The notes: a model not told the origin generated them from the sequence alone. Counted from the first letter of the stretch, positions 17,299-34,381 are shown. The stretch: DNA of 64,000 nucleotides from Klebsiella pneumoniae (GCA_945861675.1 CAMAVY010000002.1:1-64000); one strand, 5' to 3'. Made by a program: numbers and translations.

Positions 17299-18966
17299 AT
17301 GAGCGCACTTCCATCCTGGGTATGGCCGTTGGCAGCTGTGCTGACAATCGCAGTGCTGTTCTGGCTGTCGATCCGCCGCGTGCCACAAGGTAACGAATGT
17401 GTGGTCGAGCGTGCGGGGCGCTATCGCCGCACGCTCAATTCGGGCACGCACTTCCTGCTGCCATTGCTCGATCAAGCAGGTCCGTTGATCGATATCCGCG
17501 AAACACCGTTGAACATGCGCACGCTGAAGGTGGTGACGCGTGACGAGATCGAGGTCGAGGTCGCGCTGCTGTGCTTCGTGCAGATTACAGATGCAGCGCG
17601 GGCAACCTACGAAGTGCGTGATGTGCGCACGGCAGTCGAGGAACTGGTGGGCGTGCAGGTTGCCAATCATCTTGCGGCGTGTCCGTTGGGCCAGTTGGTC
17701 ACTGATCGCGAACGCGCGTTGCTGGAACTGCCGGATCGGTTGGATCGTGCGACAGACGTCTGGGGCATCAAGGTCACACGCCTGGACATCAAGGATGTGC
17801 GCCCGCCTGAGCAGCTGTTGCAGGCCATTCTTGAAGAGACACGCAACGAGCATGAGCAGCGCACGCGCCTGCTCGAGGCGCAGGCCGCGCGCAACCTGGA
17901 ACTGGAAGAACTGCAGCGCGCACATCAGCTGCAGTTGCAGAAGACGCAGCAGGAGTACGAGCAGGCGCAGGCAGCCGAAAACGCCGCCATGGCGCTCGCA
18001 TTGAGCCAGCAGGCAGCGGCCGCGCAGGCGGCCCGCTTGGAACATGAAACGGCCGCGCAGGCGGCCCGCTTGGAACATGAAACAGCCGCGCAGGCGGTTC
18101 GTACGCAGCTGGACGCTGAAGCGCGTGGCCAACTGCAGGCCCAGGAAAGTGCTGCGCTGCAACTGGCCGCGGCGCGCAACAAAGCGGAGCTCGATGCTGA
18201 GCTTGCTCGAATCGCTGCCGAAGAAGCGCGCGCACGTGAAGCGATTGCGCAATCCGAGCAGGCTGCGCGCGTGGCCCTGGCATGGCGGGAGTCCATCGAC
18301 CTTGCGCAGCGCCAACGCGAAGAAGCCGCACAACAACATCGGCGCGTCGAACAGGAAGCAACGCATGCCCATGAGCTGGCGCGCATGGCGTCCGAACATG
18401 CAGTGCATGAAGCACGCCTGCAGCACGCTCTTGAGCTCGAACGTGCCAGTGCAGAACGTGTGGCGGCGTTGGCTGAAATCGAGCATGAAAAGGTGATGAC
18501 GGCCGAGCGTCTGGGCGCGGAGCGGACGCGTCAGGCGCTTGCGTTTGTGGCAGAACAAGACGTCATGGAGCAGATGCGCACGCTCGAAGTCGCACGCATC
18601 GAAGCAGAGCGTGAAAAGAATGAACGGGAACTGGCGGCGCGGGTGCGTATCGCAGAACTGGCTGCGGCAGAGGCCGCGCAGCTTGCACGCGCGCGTGAGG
18701 TTGCAGCTGTAGCGGATGCACGTTCCGTACAGTTGCTCAGCGCATCTCTGCAGGGCGTGAACGCGGCGACGCTTTCCTACCTCGCTGCACGTGAACAGTC
18801 CGATGCGCTGCGCAGCCTGGGTAACAGCAGCCTCAACAGTGCGGCAGCCGGTGCGGCTGCAAGCATGGTGGCCAACGTCACTGCGGCCCCGCCGGGATGG
18901 GTAACAGGTGCGGCTGTCGATCACGGTGCCGACGCTGCGGAGGAATCATCGGCGAAGCGGTCGTGA
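17299..18966 (+). CDS. yqiK: flotillin-like SPFH/Band-7 protein, YqiK ortholog. Contains an in-frame 36-bp duplication.
   Basis: N-terminal TM plus SPFH domain, then a ~300-aa Ala/Glu/Arg/Gln-rich coiled coil. 555 aa versus E. coli YqiK 553 aa. Next to glnE, as yqiK-hldE-glnE in E. coli. Duplicated AAQAARLEHETA at ~18029-18100. Confidence 0.75.
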   Translation: MSALPSWVWPLAAVLTIAVLFWLSIRRVPQGNECVVERAGRYRRTLNSGTHFLLPLLDQAGPLIDIRETPLNMRTLKVVTRDEIEVEVALLCFVQITDAARATYEVRDVRTAVEELVGVQVANHLAACPLGQLVTDRERALLELPDRLDRATDVWGIKVTRLDIKDVRPPEQLLQAILEETRNEHEQRTRLLEAQAARNLELEELQRAHQLQLQKTQQEYEQAQAAENAAMALALSQQAAAAQAARLEHETAAQAARLEHETAAQAVRTQLDAEARGQLQAQESAALQLAAARNKAELDAELARIAAEEARAREAIAQSEQAARVALAWRESIDLAQRQREEAAQQHRRVEQEATHAHELARMASEHAVHEARLQHALELERASAERVAALAEIEHEKVMTAERLGAERTRQALAFVAEQDVMEQMRTLEVARIEAEREKNERELAARVRIAELAAAEAAQLARAREVAAVADARSVQLLSASLQGVNAATLSYLAAREQSDALRSLGNSSLNSAAAGAAASMVANVTAAPPGWVTGAAVDHGADAAEESSAKRS

Positions 18967-21900
18967 CCGCGTCGACATCGGATGCCGCAGCGCAACCGGA
19001 CGCCTCGTCCCCCGACAGCCCGGCGCAGCCTTATCTTCCGCCGCAACCCTATCTCCCGCCGCAGGCGCTAACACTACCGCCGGCCCTCGATGGCACCGCG
19101 CAGCGCGCGCTGGCACTGATAGGTGAACGCGCGACCGCCGAAGGCGAACACACGTTGAGTGTGTTCAACGCGGCCTGCAACAGTGCAGCGCTGCACGAGC
19201 GGTTGCTGTTCGTGCTTGCGGGTTCACCGTTCGCGGCGGATTGGGCACTGCGTGCGCAGAGCGCTGACTTCGAAGCATTCCTCAGCGGTGCATTCTCGCG
19301 GGTGCCGTCGCGCACCGAGTGGGCGCACGAGTTGCGCGGACTGCTTGATCCAATCCGTCTGGGTGATGATCCACAGGATCGCGAGCTGAAACACGAACTG
19401 CGTGTCTGGCGACTGCGCTGTCAGGTCGGCATCGTCTGGCGCGACTTGCTCGGAGAGAACGATCTCGAAGCCACTACCGCACAATTGTCGGACATGGCCG
19501 AGACCGCAATCGACGCAACTTTGCATTGCTGCTCAGCGCGGGAGACCGTCGTGCGCGGTTCGCCATCCGTCGATAGACAGGGATTGCCGCAGGCGCTTGT
19601 GGTGCTGGCCATGGGCAAGCTGGGTGCGCGCGAGCTCAATCTGTCGTCAGACGTCGATCTGATCTTTGCCTATCCATCCGCTGGCGAGACGACCGGCGGC
19701 ACTGCACGCGCCGTGACCAATCAAGCGTTCTTCCTGCGCGTCGCGCAGCGTCTGATTGCGGCGCTCGACGAATCGACCGGCGAAGGTTTCGTATTCCGCG
19801 TGGACATGCGATTGCGGCCGTTCGGTGCCAGCGGTGCACTGGTCAGCAGCTTCGATGCGCTGGAGGACTACTACCACGAGCAGGGTCGCGACTGGGAGCG
19901 TTACGCCTTGATCAAGGCGCGGCCGGTCACCGGCGATGTGGCATCGGGCGCAGTACTCATCGAACGCCTGCGACCGTTCGTGTTCCGGCGCTATCTCGAC
20001 TTCGGTGCCATCGAAGCGTTGCGCGAAATGAAGCAGCTCATCAACCGGGAACGCCTGACGCCTGCGTTTGTCGATGACGTGAAACTTGGCGCCGGCGGCA
20101 TCCGCGAAGTGGAGTTCACGGCGCAACTGTTCCAGTTGATTTTCGGTGGCCGTGACAGACGCCTGCAGGAGCGCCGGCTGCGTGTGGTGTTGCCGGTGTT
20201 GGCAGAAGAGCAGTGGCTGGGTAGCGCGGTGGTGCAAGGGCTCGATACGGCTTACGTGTTCCTGCGCCACGTCGAGCACCGCCTGCAGGCTGTTCGTGAT
20301 GCGCAGACGCAACGTTTGCCAACGGATGAATTCGAGCGCTTGCGCATTGCTACGGTGATGGGTTTTTCGGACTGGTCCGAGTTCATGCATGTGCTCGATG
20401 GGCACCGCCGCGTGGTGCAGACCGAGTTTGAACGGCTGATTGCGCGCGATGAGCCGCTTGCGCGCTTCGCGGCGTGCTGGCCGGAGGTGAGTTCGAGTGC
20501 CGAGACGCAGCTGCATGAACTGGGATTCGACGCTGAACGTGCGCTGCCCGCACTGCAGCGGCTCGCCGAAGCACGGTTGCGTCTGGCGCATCAGGATGAA
20601 GCGCGGCGACGCCTGGATCTGTTCGTGCCGAAGCTCATGGCCGCGGCGCTCGACGGCGCTGCATCCGACACCATTGCTGCTGGTGGGGCCGCCATTCCTA
20701 CTGGTGGCGCCGCTATTCCTACTGGTGGCGCCGCCACGCGCGCACTGCTGTCCGGATTGAACATTGCCGAAGCGGTGCTGCGCCGCAGCGCCTACCTTGC
20801 ATTGCTCAACGAGAACCCGGGCGCGCTTGAACAGCTCGTGCGGTTGTGTGCGGCAAGCGATGCGATTGCGAGCCGGCTGGCCGCGCGGCCCGCGTTGCTC
20901 GATGAGTTGCTCGACACACGCAGCCTGCTGACGATTCCTGACCGGGCGCAGATTGACGGCTGGCTACACGCGCAGCTTGCGCGCGTGCCGCCCGACGATC
21001 TCGAGCAACAGATGGACGCGCTGCGCAGCTTCAAGGAAGGCCACGTGCTGCGGGTTGCGGTGTGCGAAGTGTCTGGCGTGCTGCCACTGATGCAGGTATC
21101 GGACTCGCTTACGTGGTGCGCTGAGGCGGTGTTGGATGCCAGCCTCGATCTGGCGTGGCGGTTGACCGTTGCGCAGCACGGGCAACCGAGCGGTGGGCAC
21201 GACTTCCTGATCGTGGGCTACGGCAAGCTGGGCGGATTGGAGTTGGGACCAGGCTCGGATCTGGACCTGCTGTTTCTGCACGACACACCGATGACCGGCA
21301 GCACCGATGGCGAACGACCCATACCCAATCCGACGTTCTATGCGCGGCTGTCGCAGCGGTTGATGCACATCCTGACAACGTCAACACAACGCGGCGCGTT
21401 GTACGACATCGATACGCGGCTGCGACCGTCGGGCCGTGCCGGCATGATGGTGACGAGCCTGGCGGGTTTTGAAAGCTATCAGCGTGAAGAGGCTTGGACG
21501 TACGAGCATCAGGCGCTGGTGCGCGCGCGTCCGATCTGCGGGGCGCGCATGCTGGCGGAACGCTTTCAGGATGTACGGCGCCGGATACTTGCAGTGCCAC
21601 GCGATGCGGTGCAGCTGTGCGACGAGGTGCTCGCAATGCGCGAGCGCATGCAATCTGCGGCAGGCCAGCTGGGCCAGGAAACGGCCAGCGAGTTGAAGCG
21701 CGGTCGCGGCGGCATTGTGGATATCGAGTTCATCGTGCAGTACCTCGTGCTGGCACATGCGGCCGAGCATCCGGCGTTGATGCGTTACACCGATAACGTA
21801 CGCATTCTTGAATGTGTGGCGCAGGCGGGGCTGTTGAGTAACACCGATGCCAACGGGCTCACCGCGGCGTACCTTGCGCTGCGTGCTGCCGCACATGCGC

Positions 21901-22001
21901 ATGCGCTGGGCGCAGCTGTGCCCGGAAGTGCAAAACTGGAAGTATGGCGCGCCGATGTGCGTGCAATCTGGCAGAGCGTTTTCGGTGCGGCTACAAGCTA
22001 G
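18963..22001 (+). CDS. glnE: bifunctional glutamine synthetase adenylyltransferase / adenylyl-removing enzyme
   Basis: Two nucleotidyltransferase domains (MGKLGARELNLSSDVDLIF..., GYGKLGGLELGPGSDLDLLF...). Start uncertain: GTG at 18963 overlapping the yqiK stop (GTGA), or ATG at 18897. In-frame repeats PQPYLP x2 and GGAAIPT x3. Confidence 0.85.
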   Translation: MTASTSDAAAQPDASSPDSPAQPYLPPQPYLPPQALTLPPALDGTAQRALALIGERATAEGEHTLSVFNAACNSAALHERLLFVLAGSPFAADWALRAQSADFEAFLSGAFSRVPSRTEWAHELRGLLDPIRLGDDPQDRELKHELRVWRLRCQVGIVWRDLLGENDLEATTAQLSDMAETAIDATLHCCSARETVVRGSPSVDRQGLPQALVVLAMGKLGARELNLSSDVDLIFAYPSAGETTGGTARAVTNQAFFLRVAQRLIAALDESTGEGFVFRVDMRLRPFGASGALVSSFDALEDYYHEQGRDWERYALIKARPVTGDVASGAVLIERLRPFVFRRYLDFGAIEALREMKQLINRERLTPAFVDDVKLGAGGIREVEFTAQLFQLIFGGRDRRLQERRLRVVLPVLAEEQWLGSAVVQGLDTAYVFLRHVEHRLQAVRDAQTQRLPTDEFERLRIATVMGFSDWSEFMHVLDGHRRVVQTEFERLIARDEPLARFAACWPEVSSSAETQLHELGFDAERALPALQRLAEARLRLAHQDEARRRLDLFVPKLMAAALDGAASDTIAAGGAAIPTGGAAIPTGGAATRALLSGLNIAEAVLRRSAYLALLNENPGALEQLVRLCAASDAIASRLAARPALLDELLDTRSLLTIPDRAQIDGWLHAQLARVPPDDLEQQMDALRSFKEGHVLRVAVCEVSGVLPLMQVSDSLTWCAEAVLDASLDLAWRLTVAQHGQPSGGHDFLIVGYGKLGGLELGPGSDLDLLFLHDTPMTGSTDGERPIPNPTFYARLSQRLMHILTTSTQRGALYDIDTRLRPSGRAGMMVTSLAGFESYQREEAWTYEHQALVRARPICGARMLAERFQDVRRRILAVPRDAVQLCDEVLAMRERMQSAAGQLGQETASELKRGRGGIVDIEFIVQYLVLAHAAEHPALMRYTDNVRILECVAQAGLLSNTDANGLTAAYLALRAAAHAHALGAAVPGSAKLEVWRADVRAIWQSVFGAATS

Positions 22002-22029
22002 TGCGATCCAACGCAAGACCGATGACGCG

Positions 22030-23052
22030 ATGCGCACACTGCTGATCGCGCCCGCCTGGGTGGGCGACATGGTGATGGCCGAACCGCTGGTGCGGCTGCT
22101 GCATGCACAACAGCCGGCAGCCGAGATTCACGTGGCCGCACCTAGGTCCACGCGGCCGCTGGCACTGCGCATGCAGCATGTTGCGGCTACGCATGACTGG
22201 CCATTCGCGCACGGTGTGTTCGACCTTGCGCTGCGTTGGCGGCTGGCGCAGAGGCTGCGTGGTCTGCAGTTCGAGCGTGTGCTCGTGCTGCCGAACAGTT
22301 GGAAGTCCGCGCTGGTGCCGTTCCTCGCGGGCATCCCGAAGCGCGTCGGGTTTGTTGGCGAGGCGCGCTACGGGCTCCTGAATGATGCGCGGCAGTTGCG
22401 TGCCGCCGAATTGCCGATGATGGTGCAGCGCTTTCTTGCGCTCGGCCGGCCGGCCGATGCGCCGACGCCGAGTGCGGCGGTGCCACAACTGCAACCGGAT
22501 GCCGCGCAGTCCGCGCGCTTGCGCCAGGCCTGTGCGGGTGACGGCACGGCGCGCGTACTGGCGTTGTGCCCAGGCGCGGAGTTCGGTGCGTCCAAGCGCT
22601 GGCCCGGCGCGCACTTCGCTGACATTGCCAGCACATTCATTGCGCGCGGTTGGCAGGTATGGCTGTTCGGTGCCGAGAAGGATGTGCAGGTGGGTGCTGA
22701 GATCGCCGACAGCATTGCGCAGGCGCGGCGTCACAACCTGGTCAGTCTGATCGGACGCACGTCATTGCTGGATGCGATCGATCTGCTTGCATGCGCCGAT
22801 GCGGTGGTCAGCAACGACTCGGGCCTGATGCATGTAGCAGCCGCATTGGGCCGCCCGGTGGTGGGCGTGTTCGGTTCAACGTCGGAGCGCTTCACGCCAC
22901 CGCTGGGCGCGCACACGCGGTCGATCAGTATTCCGCTGCCGTGTCGACCGTGCTTCGAACGCACGTGTCGATTCGGCCATTACGACTGCCTGCAGAAGCT
23001 GGCCCCTGCAATCGTGCTGGCCAAGCTGGATCAGCTGCTGGAAGGCGCCTGA
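22030..23052 (+). CDS. waaF: ADP-heptose:LPS heptosyltransferase II
   Basis: GT9 family. MRTLLIAPAWVGDMVMAEPL N-terminus typical of WaaF. Stop overlaps the waaC start (TGATG). Confidence 0.8.
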   Translation: MRTLLIAPAWVGDMVMAEPLVRLLHAQQPAAEIHVAAPRSTRPLALRMQHVAATHDWPFAHGVFDLALRWRLAQRLRGLQFERVLVLPNSWKSALVPFLAGIPKRVGFVGEARYGLLNDARQLRAAELPMMVQRFLALGRPADAPTPSAAVPQLQPDAAQSARLRQACAGDGTARVLALCPGAEFGASKRWPGAHFADIASTFIARGWQVWLFGAEKDVQVGAEIADSIAQARRHNLVSLIGRTSLLDAIDLLACADAVVSNDSGLMHVAAALGRPVVGVFGSTSERFTPPLGAHTRSISIPLPCRPCFERTCRFGHYDCLQKLAPAIVLAKLDQLLEGA

Positions 23053-24092
23053 TGCCCAAAGTGCTGCTGGTCAAGATGTCTTCGCTGGGTGATGTGGTGC
23101 ATCTGCTGCCGGCGCTGACAGATGCGTGTGCAGCCATTCCAGACCTGCAGTTCGATTGGGTGGTTGAACGCAGCTTCGCACCCATCGCGGCCCTGCATCC
23201 CGCGGTGCGCCGTGTGCTGCCCATCGAGTTGCGTAAATGGCGGCACGCGCCGTTGCAGGCGCGCACTGCATTCGTTGCGTTTCTCGAAGCGTTGCAGTCT
23301 GAACGCTACGATCTGGTGCTGGATGCACAGGGGCTGATCAAGAGCGCGATTGTGAGCACGCTGGCGCATGGTCCTCGAACGGGCTTCAGCTTTGTGTCGG
23401 CGCGTGAACCGATTGCGAGTGCTGTGTACACGCGTCGTGTGCGCATCCCGCGTGACCTGCACGCGATTGAGCGGCTGCGGCAGTTGATGGCCTCGGCACT
23501 AGGCTATCCAATGCCAGGTGAGTCGGTGGACTTTGGCGTTACCGCGCGACCCGCGCGACCAACGCGGGCACCGGCACGCTATCTGTTGTTTCTGCACGGC
23601 ACCACCTGGTCGAGCAAGCAATGGCCCGCGCATTTCTGGCGGGCGCTGTGTCAACGCGCCACGGCGGCCGGTTGGTCGGTACGTCTGGCGTTCGCATCAG
23701 CCGACGAGCAGGCAAGGGCGCAACGAATAGCGCAGCACCTGGAACACGTGGACCTCTTGCCACCCACTGCACTGCTCGATCTGCTGCCATGGATTGCGCA
23801 TGCCGGCGGCGTGGTGTCGGTGGACACGGGGCTCGGGCACGTTGCGGCGGCATTCGCAGTCCCCACTGTCATGCTGTTTGGCCCCACCGATGCACAGCTC
23901 ACGGGCGGTCGCGGCGCACGCACCGTGAGTGTCTGCGCAGCGTTTGCCTGCGCACCTTGTCTGGATCGACGCTGCCGCTATGTGGGCCCGGCAGTGCCGG
24001 ACGACAACGGTATTGCTGTTGCACCGCCGTGCTTCGCATCGGTGCCACCGGAGCACGTGTGGTCGGCGCTCAACGAAGTCATGCAGCGATGA
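23052..24092 (+). CDS. waaC: ADP-heptose:LPS heptosyltransferase I
   Basis: GT9 family. MPKVLLVKMSSLGDVVHLLPAL N-terminus typical of WaaC. ATGA overlap with the next gene. Confidence 0.8.
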   Translation: MPKVLLVKMSSLGDVVHLLPALTDACAAIPDLQFDWVVERSFAPIAALHPAVRRVLPIELRKWRHAPLQARTAFVAFLEALQSERYDLVLDAQGLIKSAIVSTLAHGPRTGFSFVSAREPIASAVYTRRVRIPRDLHAIERLRQLMASALGYPMPGESVDFGVTARPARPTRAPARYLLFLHGTTWSSKQWPAHFWRALCQRATAAGWSVRLAFASADEQARAQRIAQHLEHVDLLPPTALLDLLPWIAHAGGVVSVDTGLGHVAAAFAVPTVMLFGPTDAQLTGGRGARTVSVCAAFACAPCLDRRCRYVGPAVPDDNGIAVAPPCFASVPPEHVWSALNEVMQR

Positions 24093-24892
24093 AGCAGCAT
24101 GTTCCTGCGTGCGACATGTTCCTGCGTGCCGATATAGCCGCTGCATGGCATGGCCAGGATCCGCTGGCGGCGGCATTCGCACTTACGGGTGACGTGCTGC
24201 GTGAGATGCCGGGGCGCCGCACGCTGCGTGTGCAGATCGCCGGGCGCACATACATCGCCAAGTTGCACAGCGGCGTCGGTTATCAGGAGATTGCCAAGAA
24301 CCTGCTGGTCGGTCGTGCAGCCGTGGTGGGCGCGGAGAATGAGTACACGGCGCTGCTGCGCTTGCAGTCCGCTGACGTACCCAGCATGCAGATCGCTGCA
24401 TTCGGCAGTGCTGACGGCGCGGCCGCGCGTCGACGCTCGTTCATTCTGCTGGACTACATCAAGCACGAGCAGACGCTTGAAGACGTTGCACGCACCTGGC
24501 GAACGCAGCCTCCGACAGCCGCGAGTCGACGCAAGCTTGTGCTGGCTGTCGCCCGGATCGCGCGGGCGATGCATGGCGCAGGCGTGAACCATAGAGATTT
24601 CTATCTGTGTCACTTCCTGTGCGCGGCTGAAGGTGAGCTGCGGCTGATCGACCTGCATCGCGCCGGCTGTGGCACGCAGGTCGCGCCGCGTTGGCGATTG
24701 AAGGATCTGGCTTCGCTGTACTTTTCGGCGATGGATGCCGGGCTGTCGGAACGCGATCGGTTGCGCTTCATGCGTTGCTATCTCGGTGGTCGGCTACCGC
24801 GCGGCAGCTCGGCCTGGGCAATGTGGCGCAAGGTCGAAGCGAAGGCTGCCTGGTTGTATCGCAAGGGGCAGAGGCTTGGCATCGTTGGCTGA
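24089..24892 (+). CDS. waaP: lipopolysaccharide core kinase (WaaP/Kdo-kinase, InaA family)
   Basis: ~267 aa. Kdo/WaaP kinase catalytic region (GVNHRDFYLCHFL...LIDLHRA). Position after waaC as in the P. aeruginosa core cluster. Orthology to WaaP versus WapP/WapQ not resolvable here. Confidence 0.65.
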   Translation: MKQHVPACDMFLRADIAAAWHGQDPLAAAFALTGDVLREMPGRRTLRVQIAGRTYIAKLHSGVGYQEIAKNLLVGRAAVVGAENEYTALLRLQSADVPSMQIAAFGSADGAAARRRSFILLDYIKHEQTLEDVARTWRTQPPTAASRRKLVLAVARIARAMHGAGVNHRDFYLCHFLCAAEGELRLIDLHRAGCGTQVAPRWRLKDLASLYFSAMDAGLSERDRLRFMRCYLGGRLPRGSSAWAMWRKVEAKAAWLYRKGQRLGIVG

Positions 24893-24911
24893 CGTTGGCG
24901 CGACAGCGCAG

Positions 24912-26378
24912 ATGCTTGACGCCCACGCGTTGCGTGCTTGCGGCAGAAATGTGCCACCGCATTTTCAGCTCGCGCTGCCCGCGGCGCTGTCCGTGTCGCT
25001 GGGCGAGCGCGTTGTTGGTCCACTGCAATGCGAGCAGATATTGCGTTGTCTGCCCGGCAGGCGATTGGTGTTTCTTGCCCGTTCGACCGATGGTCGGCGG
25101 CTGGTTGCCAAGTTGCATCTGCATCGTGCAGCGCGGGCCATGCAGGCGGAGCGCACCGGCCTCTCCTGCCTGCGGGATGCAGCGTTTGCAGTGCCGCAGC
25201 TGCTCGCGGAAGCGATGCTCGATGACGATGCGGGCCTGCAGCTGACCGAGTACATCGAGCATGCCGAGACGCTGGCAGCGTATTGGCCCCGTGCCACGGC
25301 GGCGCAGCGTGGGCAGTGTTTCGCGGTGCTGGCTGCAGGCTTTGCGCGCATGCACGGCGCGGGTGCGCATCATGCGGACCCGCACCTTGACAATTTTCTG
25401 CAGGCAGACCAGCTGTATGCGATCGATGGTGGCGCGGTGCGTTCCGGTACACGTGCGTTGACGCAAGTGCAGCGCCTGCGTGCGCTGGCCAATCTGCATG
25501 GGCAGTGCCCGCCGCAGGACGATCTGCTTCTAGATGCGACGCTTGCTGCGTACCATGCTGCTGGCGGCCCAATGCTGCACCGCGCAGCACTGCAGCGCGA
25601 GATCGACGGTGTGCGTGCAAAGCATGTACGCACGACACTGCGCAAGACGTTGCGCGACTGCTCCGAGTTCGCCGTGCAGCGCACGCACAGCACGTTCGTG
25701 GTGTGTCGACGTGAGGCACTTGCGTCGATGCAGCAGTTGATTGCGAATTCTGATGAGTGCATTGCAGAGGGTGAGCTGCTGAAGTCCGGCAACACCGCTA
25801 CCGTTGCACGGGTCATGGATCAAGCCTCCGTCAGCAGGATTGCCAAGCGCTACAACATGAAGAGCGTCTGGCATCGCATCACGCGGCTGTTCCGTCGCAC
25901 GCGCGCTGAGCGCACATGGCTGGCAGCGCATCGGCTGGACTTGCTGGGCCTGCGCACTGCACAGCCCATTGCGATGCGGCTGGAGTTGATCGGGCCGCTG
26001 CGAGCGCGAGCGCATCTATGGATGGAAGATATTCATGGCTCGACCTTGGCCGCGCAGCTTCAGGCGGGCGCCGGCCACGACAGCGCGCTGTGTGAACGCG
26101 TTGTGCAGGTGATTGCGCGTCTGCATGCGGCGGGGCTGGTGCATGGTGATCTGAAGGCCAGCAACATCCTGATCACTGAGTCCGAGGTGGTGCTCATCGA
26201 CCTCGATGCACTTGTGGCACTGCCGGCGGGCGTGCGGCGGGATCGGCGCCAGGATCGCGAGCGGACGCGCTTTCTGGAGAATCTTGCGCCGGGCGTGCAG
26301 CGCGACGCATGGCGTGCAGCGTTGCTCGACGCGTGTGCCGCGGCGCAATCGCCGCAATGCATGGAACACGTGCAGTGA
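24912..26378 (+). CDS. tandem (two-domain) lipopolysaccharide kinase-like protein
   Basis: First half has HGAGAHHADPHLDNFL, second half has LHAAGLVHGDLKASNILIT...VLIDLDAL. Both are Kdo/WaaP-kinase catalytic-loop patterns in one uninterrupted ORF. The track start at 24735 overlaps the previous gene, so the ATG at 24912 was chosen. Confidence 0.6.
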   Translation: MLDAHALRACGRNVPPHFQLALPAALSVSLGERVVGPLQCEQILRCLPGRRLVFLARSTDGRRLVAKLHLHRAARAMQAERTGLSCLRDAAFAVPQLLAEAMLDDDAGLQLTEYIEHAETLAAYWPRATAAQRGQCFAVLAAGFARMHGAGAHHADPHLDNFLQADQLYAIDGGAVRSGTRALTQVQRLRALANLHGQCPPQDDLLLDATLAAYHAAGGPMLHRAALQREIDGVRAKHVRTTLRKTLRDCSEFAVQRTHSTFVVCRREALASMQQLIANSDECIAEGELLKSGNTATVARVMDQASVSRIAKRYNMKSVWHRITRLFRRTRAERTWLAAHRLDLLGLRTAQPIAMRLELIGPLRARAHLWMEDIHGSTLAAQLQAGAGHDSALCERVVQVIARLHAAGLVHGDLKASNILITESEVVLIDLDALVALPAGVRRDRRQDRERTRFLENLAPGVQRDAWRAALLDACAAAQSPQCMEHVQ

Positions 26379-26409
26379 ACGCACGTGTCGCGAACAAGCT
26401 GTTGAGGCG

Positions 26410-28164
26410 ATGCGCGTGAGCATCATTCTGGGATTGTCCGGGGCACTTGGCCACGATGCTTCGGCGGCATTGCTGGTCGATGGCGTCACCATCGCGGCAG
26501 CCGAGGAAGAGCGCTTCACGCGTGACAAGCACGCAAAGGGGATGCTGCCGCTAGCCGCGGCGCGGTTCTGTCTGGAACACGCAGGTCTTCGCGGGCAGGA
26601 CGTGCAGTGCGTTGCGTTTCCCTATGCCGCCGTGTCGCTGCGTGAAGCCGCGCGTTGGCGTTATGCCTTGCGGCACTGGTACGCGCCGGACCGGGCGCTG
26701 GATGCGTTGTTCAATGGCAATCGCCGCTTCCGTCGCTTGCGTGCGCGTGTACGCAACCTGTGCACGGAGCTTGGCATCGACTGGACGCGGGTGCGTTTCG
26801 AGGCTGTGCCGCATCACCTTGCACATGCATCAAGTGCTTATCACCTGAGCGGTTACGCGGGACAAACGGCAATTCTCTGTGTGGATGGAAAAGGTGAGTA
26901 CGCAACGACCTGGTTCGGCTGGGGCGACGCGGGCCAGATGCACTGCATCCGGCAGTTCTACGATCCGGACTCACTGGCGGGTGTGTACGGCGCCATCACC
27001 CAGTACCTGGGTTTCGAGATGCTCGATGGTGAGTACAAGGTGATGGGCATGGCGCCCTATGGCGATGCGGGACGTTTCGACTTCTCACGTCTGATGCAGG
27101 TGCACGATGGCGCGCTGCACGTAGACACCAGGCTGGTGAACACGGTGGGCGTGCGCCGTTACAAGGAGAACGGCGTGGGCTTCTATTTCTCGCCTGCATT
27201 GGTGCGCTGGCTGGGCCATCGGCGACAGGGCGATGCCGCAGATGAACCCTACATCCACTACGCAGCGGCGATGCAGAAGCTGTACGAGGATCGCTGCCTT
27301 GCGTTGATCGAGCACCACTTGCGGCCAGTGCTCAAAGCCGGCAATGGCAAGCTGGTGTTTGCCGGCGGTGGTGCGCTGAATGTGAAGCTGAATCAGCGCA
27401 TTGTGCAGCTGCCCTATGTTCGCGAGCTCTTTGTGCAGCCTGCGGCCGGTGATGCCGGTACGGCGCTGGGCGCCGCGACATACGTTGCGGCGCGCGCGGG
27501 CACGCAGGTGCAACCGATGCAGCACGTCTATCTCGGCCCCACATACAGCCGCGCGGCGTGCGAACAGGCGCTGGCGCAGCGTGCGGAGACGGTGCACTGG
27601 CGGACGATGCAAGACCCGGCGGCGCGCGTTGCCGATCTGCTGGTGAAGGGGCATCCGGTTGCCTGGTTTCAGGGGCGTATGGAGTTCGGGCCGCGTGCAT
27701 TGGGTGGGCGCAGCATTCTTGGTTGCCCCAGCGTGCGCGGCGTGGCCGACACCATCAACGCGCAGATCAAATTTCGCGAACGCTGGCGACCCTTCTGTCC
27801 CAGCATGCTGGCGTCGGCAGCGCAGGAGATGGTCGGCGGAACACAACCTGCGCCCTACATGACGATTACGTTTGCGTTGGCGCCGGTGTGGCGGCGGCGT
27901 TTGCCTGAGGTCGTGCACGAAGATGGCACCGCGCGCATTCAGGTTGTCGATGCCGCAACGAACCCGCGTTATCACCAGCTGCTGTGTGAGCTGGAGCAGC
28001 GTACCGGCTATGGCGTGGTGTTGAACACGTCGCTCAATCGGCGTGGCGAACCGATGGTGTGTTCACCGGCGGATGCACTGAACATGTTCTTCGCTTCTGA
28101 TCTGCAGTTCCTGGCACTGGAAGATCTGCTGGTGACCAAGACTGCGCACGATCTGGATGCGTGA
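26410..28164 (+). CDS. carbamoyltransferase (NodU/CmcH family), likely LPS-core O-carbamoyltransferase
   Basis: Kae1/YgjD-like N-terminal domain (GLSGALGHDASAALLVDG...HHLAHA) plus C-terminal carbamoyltransferase domain. Same position as PA5005 in the P. aeruginosa core cluster. Confidence 0.75.
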   Translation: MRVSIILGLSGALGHDASAALLVDGVTIAAAEEERFTRDKHAKGMLPLAAARFCLEHAGLRGQDVQCVAFPYAAVSLREAARWRYALRHWYAPDRALDALFNGNRRFRRLRARVRNLCTELGIDWTRVRFEAVPHHLAHASSAYHLSGYAGQTAILCVDGKGEYATTWFGWGDAGQMHCIRQFYDPDSLAGVYGAITQYLGFEMLDGEYKVMGMAPYGDAGRFDFSRLMQVHDGALHVDTRLVNTVGVRRYKENGVGFYFSPALVRWLGHRRQGDAADEPYIHYAAAMQKLYEDRCLALIEHHLRPVLKAGNGKLVFAGGGALNVKLNQRIVQLPYVRELFVQPAAGDAGTALGAATYVAARAGTQVQPMQHVYLGPTYSRAACEQALAQRAETVHWRTMQDPAARVADLLVKGHPVAWFQGRMEFGPRALGGRSILGCPSVRGVADTINAQIKFRERWRPFCPSMLASAAQEMVGGTQPAPYMTITFALAPVWRRRLPEVVHEDGTARIQVVDAATNPRYHQLLCELEQRTGYGVVLNTSLNRRGEPMVCSPADALNMFFASDLQFLALEDLLVTKTAHDLDA

Positions 28165-28189
28165 GGCGCGCGTCTCGGACGCTGACGAC

Positions 28190-29089
28190 TCAGTAGGGTC
28201 GAGCCTCGCCCACCGGTCGTGTCTTGAAGCGCCGATGCAACCACAGGTATTGCTCGGGCGCGACGCGGATCTGTGACTCGATCATTGCGTTGACCAGGCT
28301 CGCGTCATGCACGGCATCGCCGGTTGGAAACGCCGCCGGCAACGGCTGGATGTGCAGTTCCCAGCGCCAGGGCGATTCACTGCGGAAATGACTGAAGAAC
28401 AGCACGCGCGCATTGCCTGCTGTGGCGAATCGCGCAGCGGCAGTGAGGCTGGCGGCTGGCACGCCGAAGAACGGTGCAAAGACAGAGTGCTTGCGGCCGA
28501 AGTCCTGATCGACGGCGTACCACAGCACGTGGCCGTCGCGCAGGCGGCGCAGTGCCGTGCGAACATCGCCACGTTCCAACACGCCGCCATACAGCCGCGC
28601 CCGGCCGCGGCGCATCAACGCTTCAATTGCCGGGTTCTTGTTGTAGCGGTACATCACGTCCAGGCTCAGCTGCTCGGCGAGCAGCGCGCCGGCGATGTCG
28701 AGCGTCGAGAAGTGCGCGCCCAGCAACAGCACACCGTGGCCGGCGGCTTGCGCTTCGGCGATCAGCTCGAGCCCGTTGATCCGGGCGCGTGCGCGAAGTT
28801 GCTTGACGGGCCCAAGCCAGGCCATGGCAGTTTCGATCAGAGCGATGCCGGTGGAGCGAAACACGCGCTTACGCAGTGCGTGTCGCTGCTGCTCGTCAAG
28901 CTCAGGAAAACAGAGCCGCAGATTGACGTCGGTAATGTGCGCGCGCCGCTGCGCAAGCCGGTGACCCAGCCAGCCGACACAGATGCCGATGCGCATCAGC
29001 ACCGGCAACGGCAGGCGCACCACACACCAGGCGATGCCGACCAGCAGCCAGATTGGCAGTGCGCTCGGATTGAAGCGGGACCAGGACAT
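28190..29089 (-). CDS. lpxL: lipid A biosynthesis lauroyl/myristoyl acyltransferase (LpxL/LpxM/HtrB family)
   Basis: N-terminal TM helix, HtrB-family length (299 aa) and conserved segments. Divergent from hldE. Confidence 0.75.
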   Translation of the reverse strand: MSWSRFNPSALPIWLLVGIAWCVVRLPLPVLMRIGICVGWLGHRLAQRRAHITDVNLRLCFPELDEQQRHALRKRVFRSTGIALIETAMAWLGPVKQLRARARINGLELIAEAQAAGHGVLLLGAHFSTLDIAGALLAEQLSLDVMYRYNKNPAIEALMRRGRARLYGGVLERGDVRTALRRLRDGHVLWYAVDQDFGRKHSVFAPFFGVPAASLTAAARFATAGNARVLFFSHFRSESPWRWELHIQPLPAAFPTGDAVHDASLVNAMIESQIRVAPEQYLWLHRRFKTRPVGEARPY

Positions 29090-29253
29090 GTGCGACGCAG
29101 TGATGGGCTCGTGCGCACTTTCAACGTCTGTGGCCCGGTGCGCAATGTGCAGCGCCCTTGTAGAGGCGGTGTACTCAAGCGAGCCCGATTGCGCAGGTCA
29201 TGGCGCATGACCTTGCTGCTAGCATCGCGCCATGTTCAACGTAGCGGCCCCGC

Positions 29254-30702
29254 ATGAAGCTCAGCGTTCCGCGTTTCGATGGTCACACCGTGCTGGTCGT
29301 GGGCGATGTGATGCTCGATCGCTATTGGCATGGCGACAACGTCCGCATGTCGCCGGAGGCACCTGTGCCCGTAGTGCAGGTGGATGCGCGGGAGGATCGG
29401 CCCGGTGGCGCAGCGAATGTCGCGCTCAATGTGGTCGCGTTGGGCGCGGGCTGTGTGCTCATCGGCGCGGTGGGCGACGATGACGCGGGCCGCATTCTGC
29501 GCGCGAAGCTCGAAGCGGCGGGTGTGCAGGTGGACTTCCTGACCGTGCCGGGTTGGTCGACCATCACCAAGCTGCGTGTGTTCAGTCGTCAGCAGCAGCT
29601 GCTGCGCCTCGACTTCGAATCGCCGTTGCCTGAACTGCACGCCGCTGAGCTGCTGGCCCGCGTGCAGCGCTGGATGGGCAACGTCGATGCGGTGGTGCTG
29701 GAAGACTACGACAAGGGTGTGCTGGCCAATCCGGAAGACGTCATCGCTGCGTTGCGCGATCAGCGCGTGCCGGTGATCGTCGATCCCAAGTTCAAGCCGT
29801 TGGCGCGTTATCGCGGCGCCACGGTGATCAAACCGAACCTGATTGAGTTCGAACGCCACGTGGGCGTGGTGGGTAGCGATGCCGACTTCGAGCTTCGGGC
29901 GCGCGAGCTGATGCAGGCACAGGCCGTGCCCGCATTGGTCATCACGCGCGGCGCGGCAGGCATGACGGTGCTCGAGGCGCATCGAGCCAGCGTGCATCTG
30001 CCGGCGCGGCAGGTGGCGGTGTTCGATGCGATTGGTGCGGGCGACACGGTGGCTGCCACGTTGGCGGTGGCGATGGCGGCCGGGTCCACGGTTGCCGGTG
30101 CCGCGGCGCTGGCAAACGTTGCTGCCGGTCTTGCGGTCAGCCGCCCGGGCACGGTGGCTGTGTCAGCACCGGAACTGCTGCAGGCTGTTGCGCATGAAGA
30201 GCGTGGCGCGCGCGGCGTGCTCAACGTGGCGCAGCTGGAACGTGCGGTTGCGGCAGCACGCGCAACCGGCGAGCGCATGGTGTTGACCAACGGATGCTTT
30301 GACATTCTGCACGCCGGGCATGTGGGCTATCTCGAAGAAGCACGAAAGCTGGGCGATCGGCTGATTGTCGCGGTGAATGCCGACGCTTCTGTCAGCCGGC
30401 TCAAAGGCGCAGGACGACCCATCAACCCATTGCCGCAACGCATGGCGGTGCTGGCGGCATTGTCGGCCGTCGATTGGGTGGTGTCGTTCACTGAAGACAC
30501 ACCAGAAGAACTGTTGTTGCGCGTGCGACCGGACATCCTCGTGAAGGGCGGTGACTATCAGCTCGACGAAGTTGTTGGCGCAGCGCTGGTGCGCGCGTGG
30601 GGCGGTGAGGTGCGTGTGTTGTCGTTGCTGGAGAACTTCTCGACCACGGCGATTCTGGCGCGTGTGAGTGGCAGTGGTGGCGCAGGCGAATCGGAGACCT
30701 GA
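29254..30702 (+). CDS. hldE: bifunctional D-beta-D-heptose 7-phosphate kinase / D-beta-D-heptose 1-phosphate adenylyltransferase
   Basis: N-terminal pfkB kinase domain (VLVVGDVMLDRYWHG) and C-terminal cytidylyltransferase domain (NGCFDILHAGHVGYLEEA). Confidence 0.9.
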   Translation: MKLSVPRFDGHTVLVVGDVMLDRYWHGDNVRMSPEAPVPVVQVDAREDRPGGAANVALNVVALGAGCVLIGAVGDDDAGRILRAKLEAAGVQVDFLTVPGWSTITKLRVFSRQQQLLRLDFESPLPELHAAELLARVQRWMGNVDAVVLEDYDKGVLANPEDVIAALRDQRVPVIVDPKFKPLARYRGATVIKPNLIEFERHVGVVGSDADFELRARELMQAQAVPALVITRGAAGMTVLEAHRASVHLPARQVAVFDAIGAGDTVAATLAVAMAAGSTVAGAAALANVAAGLAVSRPGTVAVSAPELLQAVAHEERGARGVLNVAQLERAVAAARATGERMVLTNGCFDILHAGHVGYLEEARKLGDRLIVAVNADASVSRLKGAGRPINPLPQRMAVLAALSAVDWVVSFTEDTPEELLLRVRPDILVKGGDYQLDEVVGAALVRAWGGEVRVLSLLENFSTTAILARVSGSGGAGESET

Positions 30703-32834: not shown

Positions 32835-33088
32835 GGAGTGAGTATCAATAGTTCGGTATAGGTGGGCGCTGCGGCAGTATATCGACGGCTGCTGCTGCCG
32901 GTTGTCCTGCCCACATGTCGAACGCTCGCGTACCCGAACCCGAAGCGCACAAAGATGCTGCCGCTACGCAGTCCGGCGCGTCTTCAGGCACGGCTGAAGG
33001 CGTGCAGTCGGGTGTGCCGATGGGTCCGCAGCTGAGTCCGCAGATCGGCCCGCAGCTGGGTCCACAGTTGGGGCTGCCGCGCGCACTC

Positions 33089-34381
33089 ATGTGGCGATGG
33101 CTCTATCAGGTGTTGCTCTTGTTGCTGATGCCCTTCGTGTGGCTGCGTCTGGCCTGGCGTGCGCTGCGGATTCCCGCGCTGCGCACGCGTTGGCCCGAAC
33201 GCCGGGGCGTGCTGGCGCAGACGATTGCACCCGGCGGGATCTGGTTGCACGCGGTGTCGGCGGGCGAGGTCATTGCGGCAGCGCCGCTGATTCGCGCGTT
33301 GCGCGAGCGGCATCCCGCTTGGCCGCTGCTTGTCACCACCACCACGCACACCGGCAGCGAACGCGCGCACGCGCTGCTCGGCGATGCAGTGCAGCATGCC
33401 TATGCGCCATACGACACTGCGGCGGCAGTGCGGCGATTTCTATCATCGGCACAACCCCGCATTGCGGTGCTCTTCGAGACGGAGCTGTGGCCAAACACAA
33501 TCGAAGCCTGCCATCAGCGCGGCATTCGAACGCTATTGGTCAACGGTCGCCTGTCTGCTCGGTCGGCGCGTCGCTACGCGCGGCTCGGCACATTCACCAC
33601 GCGCATGCTGTGTCAGCTGGATGTGGTTGCCTGCCAGGATGCGGCCCACGCGGCGCGCTTTGCGCAGCTCGGCGCGCCGCGCGCGTGTATTCAGGTCCTG
33701 GGCAATCTGAAGTTCGATCTGCAGATTGATCCGGCGCTGCAAACAGCAGGCGCGGCGTTGCGGCTCCAGCCGCCCTTTGCAGGTCGACCCGTGTGGATTG
33801 CGGCCAGCACCCATGCGGGCGAAGAAGCCGTCGTGCTGGCAGCGCATCAGCAGGTTTGCATGCGGTTTCCGCAGGCGTTGCTGGTGTTGGTACCGCGGCA
33901 CCCTGAACGCGGCGATGAAGTTGAACATTTGTGTGCAGGCTGGAACGTTGTGCGACGAAGTCGTGGCGCGCTGCCGGTCGGCGATGCGCAGCGCACTGAT
34001 CCACAGCGCGGTGCCGCGCGCGAGGTGGACATCGTGCTGTGCGATCGAATGGGCGAACTGCTGTTGCTCTACTGCACAGCGCAGGTCGCGTTTGTCGGCG
34101 GCAGTCTGGTCGATGTCGGCGGCCACAATCTGATCGAGCCGGCCGCGCTGGGCGTTCCATTGCTTGCGGGGGCCAGCGATCGGAACTTTGTCGATGTTGT
34201 CGCGCAGCTACGCTCGGTGGGTGCACTGAGAATTGTGTCCGATGCTGACACGCTGGCAGCAGAGGTGTGTGCCGTGCTGGAGGACGCAGCGGCCGCTGTA
34301 GTGCGTTCGGCGGCCGGGCGTCAGATTGTGTCGGCCGGCCAAGGTGCGACCGAGCGCGTGCTGCGCTTGTTTGAAGTGTGA
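33089..34381 (+). CDS. waaA: 3-deoxy-D-manno-octulosonic acid (Kdo) transferase
   Basis: KdtA-like throughout. Starts with a hydrophobic anchor (MWRWLYQVLLLLLMPFVWLRL). The ORF is open upstream to 32915, adding an extension with a (G)PQL(S/G) repeat. Confidence 0.8.
   Translation: MWRWLYQVLLLLLMPFVWLRLAWRALRIPALRTRWPERRGVLAQTIAPGGIWLHAVSAGEVIAAAPLIRALRERHPAWPLLVTTTTHTGSERAHALLGDAVQHAYAPYDTAAAVRRFLSSAQPRIAVLFETELWPNTIEACHQRGIRTLLVNGRLSARSARRYARLGTFTTRMLCQLDVVACQDAAHAARFAQLGAPRACIQVLGNLKFDLQIDPALQTAGAALRLQPPFAGRPVWIAASTHAGEEAVVLAAHQQVCMRFPQALLVLVPRHPERGDEVEHLCAGWNVVRRSRGALPVGDAQRTDPQRGAAREVDIVLCDRMGELLLLYCTAQVAFVGGSLVDVGGHNLIEPAALGVPLLAGASDRNFVDVVAQLRSVGALRIVSDADTLAAEVCAVLEDAAAAVVRSAAGRQIVSAGQGATERVLRLFEV

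What the first reader, a model, noticed from the sequence alone, without database searches (positions are those of the whole stretch)
22030..28164. Compact LPS inner-core cluster with three Kdo/WaaP-type kinase domains (two fused) and a carbamoyltransferase
glnE is followed by waaF, waaC (TGATG overlap), a WaaP-like kinase (ATGA overlap), then one uninterrupted 488-aa ORF with two kinase catalytic cores (HGAGAHHADPHLDNFL and HAAGLVHGDLKASNILI...IDLDAL), then a NodU/CmcH carbamoyltransferase. This mirrors the P. aeruginosa glnE-(ilvE)-waaF-waaC-(waaG)-waaP-wapP-wapQ-PA5006-PA5005 arrangement but lacks ilvE and waaG, and two kinase genes are fused. It predicts a heavily phosphorylated and carbamoylated heptose inner core. 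The tandem-kinase fusion is unusual. lpxL, hldE and waaA sit close by, but with an AKR and an FAD oxidoreductase interposed.
Basis: partly seen in the sequence, partly recalled or inferred. Interest (0 to 1): 0.5.

Follow-up and report, generated by a model that had tools for sequence, protein, structure and literature searches.

The report
Ordinary LPS core cluster, PA5006-type double kinase
The genes are really there, but the "fused" double kinase is the normal, widespread form of a known, biochemically unstudied Pseudomonas LPS gene (PA5006), so this is a slimmed-down ordinary inner-core cluster, not a new fusion.

Summary
glnE is followed by waaF, waaC, waaP, one uninterrupted 488/497-aa ORF and a NodU/TobZ-type carbamoyltransferase. 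lpxL, hldE and waaA lie nearby. Both halves of the long ORF pass the Pfam Kdo/WaaP threshold and both fold as protein-kinase-like domains (AlphaFold pLDDT 92 and 95).

The reading "two kinase genes are fused, unusual" is not supported. Colinear 440-550-aa homologues occur in more than 550 reference genomes, including many Pseudomonas/Stutzerimonas. There the gene sits between waaP/wapP(/wapQ) and the carbamoyltransferase, which is the slot of P. aeruginosa PA5006 (at least 493 aa by the literature). Neither half is a WapP or WapQ orthologue, and wapP/wapQ co-occur with the double kinase elsewhere. The same ORF was found on three contigs (two shown, from separate metagenome assemblies), so it is not a sequencing artefact.

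The catalytic Lys/Asp/Asn/Asp residues of both halves are 95-100% conserved across 182 family members, so both are probably active.

What is mildly unusual is what is missing. This uncultured Pseudomonadales lineage lacks ilvE, wapP, wapQ and, unlike 62 of 62 comparable loci, the waaG/wapG glycosyltransferase.

Verdict: a new member of a known, uncharacterised family. Interest is low to moderate.

The parts
18897..22001 (+). glnE (glutamine synthetase adenylyltransferase). It is the upstream neighbour and probably in the same transcription unit.
   Evidence: Pfam GlnE x2 plus GlnD_UR_UTase, E 1e-145. No promoter-like or terminator-like signal above chance in 18500-29400.
22030..23052 (+). waaF, heptosyltransferase II
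   Evidence: TIGR02195 at 409.7 bits (cutoff 134.6) and PF01075.
23052..24092 (+). waaC, heptosyltransferase I. Its start overlaps the waaF stop (TGATG).
   Evidence: TIGR02193 at 322.8 bits (cutoff 185.3). Junction sequence shown.
24089..24892 (+). waaP (rfaP), heptose(I) kinase, 267 aa. ATGA overlap with waaC.
   Evidence: NF011703 at 278.9 bits (cutoff 170). E 3.1e-60 to P. aeruginosa WaaP 6DFL, with HRDFYLCHF and IDLHRA conserved.
24885..26378 (+). PA5006-type tandem (two-domain) LPS-kinase-family gene. It is 497 aa from the TTG at 24885, or 488 aa from the ATG at 24912.
   Evidence: Full-length homologues. Conserved synteny. AF2 pLDDT 92, pTM 0.87. Foldseek hits to PRPK/Bud32, WaaP 6DFL and the TYK2 pseudokinase-kinase.
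24912..25649 (+). N-terminal kinase domain (aa 1-246 in ATG numbering). Catalytic set: K67, E80, D156, N161, D172.
   Evidence: Pfam Kdo 26.2 bits, above the 21.3 cutoff. hhalign to WaaP gives 97.3% probability, E 2e-11. AF2 of this half alone gives pLDDT 95.3. Foldseek to PRPK gives E 1e-9, TM 0.59-0.65. These residues are conserved in 167-182 of 182 members (E80: 167 E plus 14 D).
25650..26378 (+). C-terminal kinase domain. Catalytic set: K312, HGD413, N418, D430 (IDLD). A conserved junction motif, K245-xx-R248-D-C250, lies at the end of the N-terminal domain just upstream (aa 245-250, about 25644-25661).
   Evidence: Pfam Kdo 64.4 bits, and RIO1 above its cutoff. hhalign to WapP gives 99.4% probability, E 1e-21. 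The catalytic residues are conserved in 172-176 of 182 members; most of the remaining rows are alignment gaps.
26410..28164 (+). WapO/PA5005-like O-carbamoyltransferase
   Evidence: PF02543 plus PF16861. E 1e-77 to 1e-80 to TobZ/7xb6. 60-67% identity to the carbamoyltransferase adjacent to the tandem kinase in Pseudomonadales loci.
28190..29089 (-). lpxL-type late lipid A acyltransferase, convergent with the operon
   Evidence: PF03279, E 1.6e-65. The same CT-lpxL(-)-hldE(+) order occurs in L008-L010, L087 and other loci.
29254..30702 (+). hldE, bifunctional heptose kinase/adenylyltransferase that supplies ADP-heptose
   Evidence: PfkB plus CTP_transf_like.
32915..34381 (+). waaA, Kdo transferase
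   Evidence: PF04413, E 4.9e-66.

Best explanation
This is the LPS inner-core operon of an uncultured member of the Pseudomonadales in the broad sense. The 488/497-aa ORF is the orthologue of P. aeruginosa PA5006. PA5006 belongs to a widespread family whose normal architecture is two Kdo/WaaP-type kinase domains in one chain.

**Proposed pathway**
1. WaaA adds Kdo.
2. WaaC and WaaF add HepI and HepII, using ADP-heptose from HldE.
3. WaaP phosphorylates HepI first.
4. The tandem kinase uses its two separate active sites to add two further phosphoryl groups to the heptose region. These could go to new positions or extend mono- to di-/triphosphate.
5. The WapO-like enzyme carbamoylates HepII.

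**Shown here**
- The gene identities.
- The kinase fold of both halves.
- Conservation of both catalytic sets.
- Synteny with the PA5006 slot.
- That the architecture is ancestral and common.

**Inferred**
- That both domains are active on LPS.
- The order of the steps.
- The acceptor positions.

In this lineage WaaP plus the tandem kinase are the only core kinases in the cluster. wapP, wapQ and the waaG/wapG glycosyltransferase are absent from it.
For: **Domain and family assignments**
-.

**The two-domain form is the norm**
- 67 full-length hits of 426-733 aa, with colinear alignment A1.
- 552 of 600 candidate stretches in reference genomes encode a relative.
- 124 of the 150 best representatives found with the N half alone are 440-550 aa.
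- The named Pseudomonas/Stutzerimonas proteins are 473-499 aa.

**Synteny**
- P. stutzeri has glnE-ilvE-waaF-waaC-waaG-waaP-wapP-[480 aa]-CT.
- waaP lies upstream in 62 of 66 loci with enough upstream flank, and the carbamoyltransferase is adjacent downstream in 26 of 72.
- The PAO1 order PA5012...PA5005, with PA5006 between wapQ and wapO, is tabulated in PMC8005017.
- A PA5006 fragment spans aa 300-493 in PMC8707732.
- PA5006 is called a putative LPS kinase in the same operon in PMC3147165.

**Fold**
-.

**Catalytic residues across 182 members**
- N half: K67 182/182, E80 167 E plus 14 D, D156 179, N161 178, D172 182.
- C half: K312 176, D413 173, N418 172, D430 175.

**Functional link to WaaP**
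- Natural WaaP+N+C and WapP+N+C triple fusions exist.

**WaaP acts first**
- WaaP-depleted P. aeruginosa cores lack all phosphate and carbamoyl, whereas WapP/WapQ/PA5006-depleted cores keep 1-2 phosphates plus carbamoyl (PMC3147165).
Against: - No member of the PA5006 family has a demonstrated activity or acceptor. Only 7 papers in the held library mention PA5006 and none gives biochemistry.
- The PAO1 PA5006 sequence itself could not be fetched. Orthology therefore rests on synteny in other Pseudomonas genomes plus the literature.
- The N half is divergent: only 26 bits to Pfam Kdo.
- The C half lacks a conserved alphaC glutamate. Position 333 is E here but W in most members.
- The best structural neighbours are protein kinases (PRPK/Bud32), not sugar kinases.
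- The organism is uncultured, so its core structure is unknown.
Confidence: 0.65

Rival explanations
1. The N-terminal half is a pseudokinase or scaffold that regulates or positions the C-terminal active kinase, as JH2 does in JAK/TYK2. The protein would then add only one phosphate.
For: The N half is the more divergent domain (Pfam Kdo 26 bits against 64 bits). The full model's second-best Foldseek hit is the TYK2 pseudokinase-kinase tandem, with 468 aligned columns.
Against: The beta3 Lys, the alphaC Glu/Asp, the catalytic-loop Asp and Asn and the metal-binding Asp of the N half are kept in 178-182 of 182 diverse members, counting E and D together at position 80. Pseudokinases typically lose at least one of these. 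The TYK2 alignment has an rmsd of 20 A, so it reflects topology only.
Confidence: 0.17
2. The protein is a protein kinase (Ser/Thr/Tyr, Bud32/RIO-like) that phosphorylates LPS-assembly proteins rather than the core sugars.
For: The top structural neighbours are PRPK/Bud32 and Rio kinases. Databases name homologues 'serine/threonine protein kinase' or 'BUD32 family'. PA5006 interacts with PA2576 and PA3694 in two-hybrid assays (PMC8707732).
Against: Both halves belong to the Kdo/WaaP family by profile comparison. The gene is embedded next to waaP in 62 of 66 loci and is fused to WaaP or WapP in some genomes. The database names are automatic.
Confidence: 0.1
3. This is a lineage-specific recent fusion of two formerly separate kinase genes, such as wapP and wapQ. 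That is the first reader's implied reading.
For: wapP and wapQ are missing from the window. The C half is closest to WapP among the single-domain families (hhalign E 1e-21).
Against: The same two-domain gene coexists with separate wapP in 33 of 66 loci, and with wapQ-like genes in L045, L047, L053, L055 and L060. The single-domain families match one another much more strongly (WaaP-WapP E 6e-26, WapQ-WapP E 4e-21) than WapQ matches either half (E 3e-8 and 9e-10). The C half matches WapP about as well as WapQ does, but only over about 160 columns rather than the full length. The architecture spans Beta- and Gammaproteobacteria and some Desulfobacterota.
Confidence: 0.02
4. A sequencing or assembly artefact (a missed stop or frameshift) joins two ORFs.
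For: None, beyond the general risk that comes with metagenome assemblies.
Against: The identical 497-aa product was found on three contigs; the two shown come from separate ENA assemblies. Orthologues at 71-80% identity have the same length. AF2 confidence is high across the junction: pLDDT 91-94 for residues 231-260.
Confidence: 0.01

Closest known systems
P. aeruginosa PA5006 (putative LPS core kinase; last kinase gene of the waaF-waaC-wapG-waaP-wapP-wapQ-PA5006 operon, upstream of wapO/PA5005)
   Same: It occupies the same slot, after the single-domain core kinases and immediately before the carbamoyltransferase. Its size is similar (at least 493 aa against 488/497 aa). It belongs to the same family as the 473-499-aa Pseudomonas/Stutzerimonas proteins, which align full-length with the window ORF at 32-38% identity.
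   Different: Identity to Pseudomonas members is only about 32-38%. Here it is the only kinase partner of WaaP, with no wapP or wapQ. The PAO1 sequence itself was not compared directly.
WaaP/RfaP heptose(I) 4-kinase (P. aeruginosa structure 6DFL)
   Same: The window's 267-aa gene is a clear WaaP (E 3e-60). Both halves of the tandem kinase share the WaaP-family fold and catalytic motifs. The N half also shares the WaaP-like LPGRR...AKLH N-lobe motif, at 33% identity over 182 aa to the window's own WaaP.
   Different: Neither half reaches the RfaP equivalog score: 18 bits against a cutoff of 170. They form separate, older branches of the family.
WapP (PA5008) and WapQ (PA5007), single-domain core heptose kinases
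   Same: They belong to the same Pfam family. The C half is the family's nearest relative of WapP (hhalign 99.4%, E 1e-21).
   Different: They are not orthologues. wapP and wapQ are separate genes that co-occur with the tandem kinase in many genomes, and both are absent from this window.
Tandem pseudokinase-kinase proteins (JAK/TYK2, 4OLI)
   Same: Two protein-kinase-like domains in one chain. A Foldseek alignment spans both domains.
   Different: There is no sequence relationship. Here both domains keep a complete catalytic residue set, so the pseudokinase analogy probably does not hold.
WapO/PA5005 and TobZ/NodU/CmcH O-carbamoyltransferases
   Same: The same two-domain Carbam_trans_N plus Carbam_trans_C architecture. 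60-67% identity to the Pseudomonadales enzymes adjacent to the kinase.
   Different: It falls below the NodU equivalog cutoff (151 bits against 1000), so it is not NodU itself. Its acceptor (7-O of HepII in Pseudomonas) is inferred, not shown.

Membership tests
Kdo/WaaP LPS kinase family (Pfam PF06293) | Profile match above the gathering score, for each half taken separately | tested here: met
   The N half scores 26.2 bits and the C half 64.4 bits against a cutoff of 21.3. hhalign against WaaP gives 97.3% and 97.4% probability.
Kdo/WaaP LPS kinase family (Pfam PF06293) | Protein-kinase-like bilobal fold | tested here: met
   AF2 pLDDT is 92 for the full length and 95.3 for the N half alone. 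Foldseek finds PRPK, WaaP 6DFL and Rio kinases at E 1e-9 to 1e-10.
Kdo/WaaP LPS kinase family (Pfam PF06293) | Catalytic Lys (beta3), catalytic-loop Asp and Asn, and metal-binding Asp present | tested here: met
   N half: K67, D156, N161, D172. C half: K312, D413, N418, D430. Each is conserved in at least 172 of 182 members. The alphaC Glu is conserved only in the N half.
Kdo/WaaP LPS kinase family (Pfam PF06293) | ATP-dependent phosphorylation of an LPS core sugar | not testable with these tools
   This needs an enzyme assay or core mass spectrometry.
PA5006-type tandem kinase | A single chain of about 440-550 aa with an N-type and then a C-type kinase domain, colinear with family members | tested here: met
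   Alignment A1 covers the full length. In every locus the K2_N and K3_C tblastn hits are contiguous. 124 of 150 representatives are 440-550 aa.
PA5006-type tandem kinase | Located in the inner-core operon, downstream of waaP (and wapP/wapQ) and upstream of the wapO carbamoyltransferase | tested here: met
   The window order is waaP-tandem-CT. The same order is seen in P. stutzeri L003 and in 26 of the 72 loci with enough downstream flank (CT adjacent downstream). waaP lies upstream in 62 of 66.
PA5006-type tandem kinase | Direct sequence orthology to PAO1 PA5006 | not tested
   The PAO1 sequence was not retrievable. It was not among the 80 loci kept, and P. aeruginosa was not in the top 120 hits. 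The link rests on synteny plus PMC8005017 and PMC8707732.
WaaP (RfaP) equivalog, for the 267-aa gene | NCBIfam NF011703 above its cutoff, plus similarity to solved WaaP | tested here: met
   278.9 bits against a cutoff of 170. E 3.1e-60 to 6DFL.
WapP / WapQ, considered for the two halves | Each half closer to WapP or WapQ than those families are to each other, and mutually exclusive with separate wapP/wapQ genes | tested here: not met
   The C half matches WapP at E 1e-21, comparable to WapQ-WapP (4e-21), but WaaP-WapP is stronger (6e-26). The N half matches WapQ at E 3e-8 and WapP at E 4e-11. Separate wapP is present beside the tandem gene in 33 of 66 loci.
WapO/PA5005-type carbamoyltransferase | Carbam_trans_N plus Carbam_trans_C domains, adjacent to the core kinases | tested here: met
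   Carbamoylation of HepII was not testable.

The most novel reading that the evidence does not exclude
The PA5006-type tandem kinase, not WapP or WapQ, is the universal partner of WaaP. Both of its domains are active, and together with WaaP it forms a three-site heptose phosphorylation machine. Natural WaaP+N+C and WapP+N+C single-chain fusions support this. In this lineage the tandem kinase alone supplies every core phosphate beyond the WaaP one. Studying it would finally assign a function to PA5006 in P. aeruginosa, where core phosphorylation is essential.
Probability: 0.35. Interest if true: 0.5.

Novelty: new member of a known kind. Interest (0 to 1): 0.25.

Why it matters
For this window, very little. 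It is a routine inner-core operon and the "fusion" is the family norm.

The wider point has modest value. PA5006 sits in the essential core-phosphorylation operon of P. aeruginosa and is still only a "putative kinase". The seven papers I could search that mention it do not discuss the fact that it carries two complete, separately conserved catalytic sites.

A lineage in which WaaP and this tandem kinase are the only cluster kinases, together with genomes where WaaP is fused to it, offers a simpler genetic background in which to work out what each domain does. The missing waaG/wapG suggests a different first outer-core linkage, or a relocated gene, in this uncultured clade.

Tried and rejected
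- **afdb50 fold search.** The aim was to find the AlphaFold entry for PA5006. The library was not available.
- **Retrieving P. aeruginosa PA5006.** I tried a reference-genome scan and a last protein search seeded with the P. stutzeri homologue. P. aeruginosa was not among the rows returned, so the link to PA5006 is by synteny and literature.
- **Sequence-only PDB search with the full ORF.** It gave only weak protein-kinase hits to the C half and missed WaaP. Fold search was needed.
- **GC3-based gene finder.** My first attempt was not discriminating at 63% GC. I replaced it with a codon log-odds model.
- **About 2 kb tblastn matches in some loci.** They looked like wapP-tandem fusions but are separate ORFs in different frames. 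Real triple fusions do exist as database proteins.
- **First WapQ set.** It contained two wrong-frame sequences and was rebuilt.
- **tRNA, Rfam and promoter/terminator scans.** They found nothing relevant.
- **Rejected readings.** Assembly artefact, a recent wapP+wapQ fusion, and horizontal island. GC and skew are flat across the cluster.

Full report
**1. The observation**

- waaF spans 22030-23052.
- waaC spans 23052-24092, and its ATG overlaps the waaF TGA (cTGATG).
- A 267-aa kinase gene spans 24089-24892, with an ATGA overlap with waaC.
- One open frame runs to 26378.
- A 584-aa gene spans 26410-28164.

Curated profiles confirm the names.
- waaF: TIGR02195 heptosyltransferase II, 410 bits.
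- waaC: TIGR02193 heptosyltransferase I, 323 bits.
- The 267-aa kinase: NF011703 RfaP/WaaP, 279 bits against a cutoff of 170.
- The 584-aa gene: Carbam_trans_N plus Carbam_trans_C.

The WaaP matches the solved P. aeruginosa WaaP (6DFL) at E 3e-60. The carbamoyltransferase matches TobZ, GdmN and 7xb6 at E 1e-73 to 1e-80.

The rest of the window is ordinary gammaproteobacterial chromosome, including parE, parC, orn, queG, nnr, tsaE, amiB, mutL, miaA and hflX. Composition is flat across it.

**2. The long ORF holds two kinase domains and is not an artefact**

- Each half alone passes the Pfam Kdo/WaaP gathering score: N half 26.2 bits, C half 64.4 bits, cutoff 21.3.
- AlphaFold2 with a 26-sequence alignment gives pLDDT 92 and pTM 0.87 for the whole chain. 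The N half alone gives pLDDT 95.3. The secondary-structure order in each half is that of a protein kinase.
- Foldseek against the PDB returns PRPK/Bud32, WaaP 6DFL and Rio kinases for the whole model, plus the TYK2 pseudokinase-kinase tandem over 468 columns.
- For the N half alone, Foldseek returns PRPK at E 1e-9 with TM 0.59-0.65.
- The identical product was found on three contigs; the two shown are from separate ENA assemblies.
- Orthologues at 71-80% identity are 493-500 aa.

The public gene callers start the gene at the TTG at 24885, giving 497 aa. Two things favour that start. It has GAGG 10 nt upstream. The resulting N-terminus, MADVGATAQ, resembles the orthologues' MADASHTAE and MADADA. 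With that start the gene overlaps the waaP stop by 8 nt.

**3. What the ORF is**

The two-domain form is the family norm, not a local fusion.

- A word-indexed search returned 67 homologues. Nearly all are 440-510 aa and align along the full length. They include named proteins from P. stutzeri, Azomonas, Halopseudomonas and Geopseudomonas.
These come from Rhodocyclaceae (Accumulibacter, Azonexus, Aromatoleum), Pseudomonas and allies, Porticoccaceae/Cellvibrionales, Methylococcaceae and some Desulfobacterota.
- An exhaustive HMMER search with the N half alone found 746 clusters at 50% identity. Of the best 150, 124 are 440-550 aa with the domain at residues about 10-250. Several of the shorter ones (for example P0216, P0240, P0251, P0258) break off inside the C half and look like truncated fragments; the rest were not examined.
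- A search seeded with the P. stutzeri protein found 3,395 proteins at E 1e-60 or better. The 120 listed are 456-499 aa, and those with organism names are Pseudomonas, Stutzerimonas or Aquipseudomonas. They are annotated "lipopolysaccharide kinase InaA family protein", "serine/threonine protein kinase" or "BUD32 family".

**4. Synteny identifies the slot as PA5006**

P. stutzeri has the order glnE-ilvE-waaF-waaC-waaG-(repeats)-waaP-wapP-[480-aa homologue]-carbamoyltransferase.

Across the 80 reference loci:
- waaP lies just upstream in 62 of the 66 loci with enough upstream flank.
- wapP lies just upstream in 33 of those 66.
- waaG lies just upstream in 63 of those 66.
- The carbamoyltransferase is immediately downstream in 26 of 72.

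Many marine Pseudomonadales loci continue with lpxL(-) and hldE(+), as the window does.

The PAO1 order is waaF(PA5012)-waaC-wapG-waaP-wapP-wapQ-PA5006-wapO(PA5005). It is tabulated in PMC8005017. PMC8707732 reports a PA5006 fragment covering aa 300-493, so PA5006 is itself about 490 aa. PMC3147165 calls it a putative LPS kinase in the same operon.

The correct mapping of the window is therefore waaP-[no wapP, no wapQ]-PA5006-PA5005. I could not fetch the PAO1 sequence, so this last link rests on synteny and literature.

**5. The halves are not WapP or WapQ**

Profile-profile comparison gives the following.

| Pair | E-value |
|---|---|
| WaaP-WapP | 6e-26 |
| WapQ-WapP | 4e-21 |
| WapQ-WaaP | 4e-19 |
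| C half-WapP | 1e-21 |
| N half-C half | 3e-13 |
| N half-WaaP | 2e-11 |
| C half-WapQ | 9e-10 |
| N half-WapQ | 3e-8 |

Separate wapP genes, and wapQ-like genes in some genomes, sit beside the tandem gene. A wapP+wapQ fusion is thus excluded. No waaG, wapP, wapQ or ilvE homologue exists anywhere in the 64 kb.

**6. Are both domains active?**

I aligned 182 family members and checked the catalytic residues.

| Half | Residue | Conserved in (of 182) |
|---|---|---|
| N | K67 | 182 |
| N | E80 | 167 E, 14 D |
| N | D156 | 179 |
| N | N161 | 178 |
| N | D172 | 182 |
| C | K312 | 176 |
| C | D413 | 173 |
| C | N418 | 172 |
| C | D430 | 175 |

For the C half, most of the remaining rows are alignment gaps.

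This argues against a pseudokinase N half. It suggests two independent phosphotransfer sites.

Two details remain unexplained. The C half has no conserved alphaC glutamate. A strongly conserved junction motif, K245-xx-R248-D-C250-S-x-F253, has no known role.

**7. Likely mechanism (inferred)**

Established knowledge of the pathway and the depletion data in PMC3147165 bear on the order. WaaP-depleted cores lack all phosphate and carbamoyl. WapP/WapQ/PA5006-depleted cores keep 1-2 phosphates and the carbamoyl group.

The most likely order is therefore:
1. WaaA
2. WaaC
3. WaaF
4. WaaP, on HepI
5. The tandem kinase, adding two further phosphoryl groups
6. WapO-like carbamoylation of HepII, which depends on WaaP but not on the other kinases

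Natural single-chain WaaP+N+C proteins (P0049, P0052, P0055, P0237) and a WapP+N+C protein (P0255) support a functional coupling with WaaP. The acceptor positions are unknown.

**8. What is unusual here**

ParE is at most 75% identical to any named genome. The best named hits are "MAG: Pseudomonadales bacterium", then Hydrocarboniclastica and Marinobacter at 72%. The source is therefore an uncultured Pseudomonadales lineage.

Its 71-72%-identity relative has the same T2SSE-Band7-glnE-waaF-waaC-waaP-tandem order with no waaG (L085). More distant relatives at 37-46% identity, which share the Band7-glnE upstream context, keep a GT4 gene between waaC and waaP. All 62 reference loci with waaP also have waaG.

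Loss or relocation of waaG/wapG is therefore a clade-specific trait. It is a minor variation.

**9. Verdict**

- The feature is a new member of a known kind, a PA5006-family tandem kinase in a trimmed Pseudomonadales inner-core operon.
- Interest is low to moderate. It comes mainly from the fact that PA5006 itself has never been characterised, while both of its catalytic sites are clearly under selection.

Noticed in passing
Database proteins P0049, P0052, P0055, P0237 (729-745 aa) and P0255 (752 aa); not in the window: Single-chain triple kinases. A full WaaP domain (or WapP in P0255) is followed by the N-type and C-type domains of the tandem kinase. This is a Rosetta-stone hint that WaaP and PA5006-type proteins act together.
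   Followed up: partly
window 23052-24892 (waaC/waaP junction) and the whole 64 kb: There is no GT4 waaG/wapG gene next to waaP or anywhere in the window. All 62 comparable reference loci have one. The 72%-identity relative (L085) also lacks it, while more distant relatives in a similar upstream context (L086, L087) keep it.
   Followed up: partly
window 25644-25670 (aa 245-253 of the tandem kinase): A junction motif K-x-x-R-D-C-S-x-F between the two kinase domains is nearly invariant: K245 in 178 of 182 members and R248 in 177 of 182. It has no known role. Position 333 in the C half's alphaC region is E here but W in most members, so the usual alphaC Glu is not conserved.
   Followed up: no
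L003 5774-7345 (P. stutzeri, between waaG and waaP): About 1.5 kb of tandem REP-like repeats interrupts the core operon and reads as long spurious ORFs on both strands.
   Followed up: no
window 41821-43332(-) and 46757-48682(-): Two long ORFs (503 and 641 aa) have strong codon-usage scores but no Pfam family at E 1e-5 or better.
   Followed up: no
window 30703-31509(-) and 31455-32834(-): The aldo-keto reductase ORF matches only positions 2-149 of the 291-position Pfam profile. It overlaps the upstream FAD-oxidoreductase ORF by 55 nt and may be truncated or divergent. The pair sits between hldE and waaA.
   Followed up: no
window 9000-9572(-): A PIN-domain ORF, possibly a toxin of a toxin-antitoxin pair, lies in an otherwise housekeeping stretch.
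   Followed up: no
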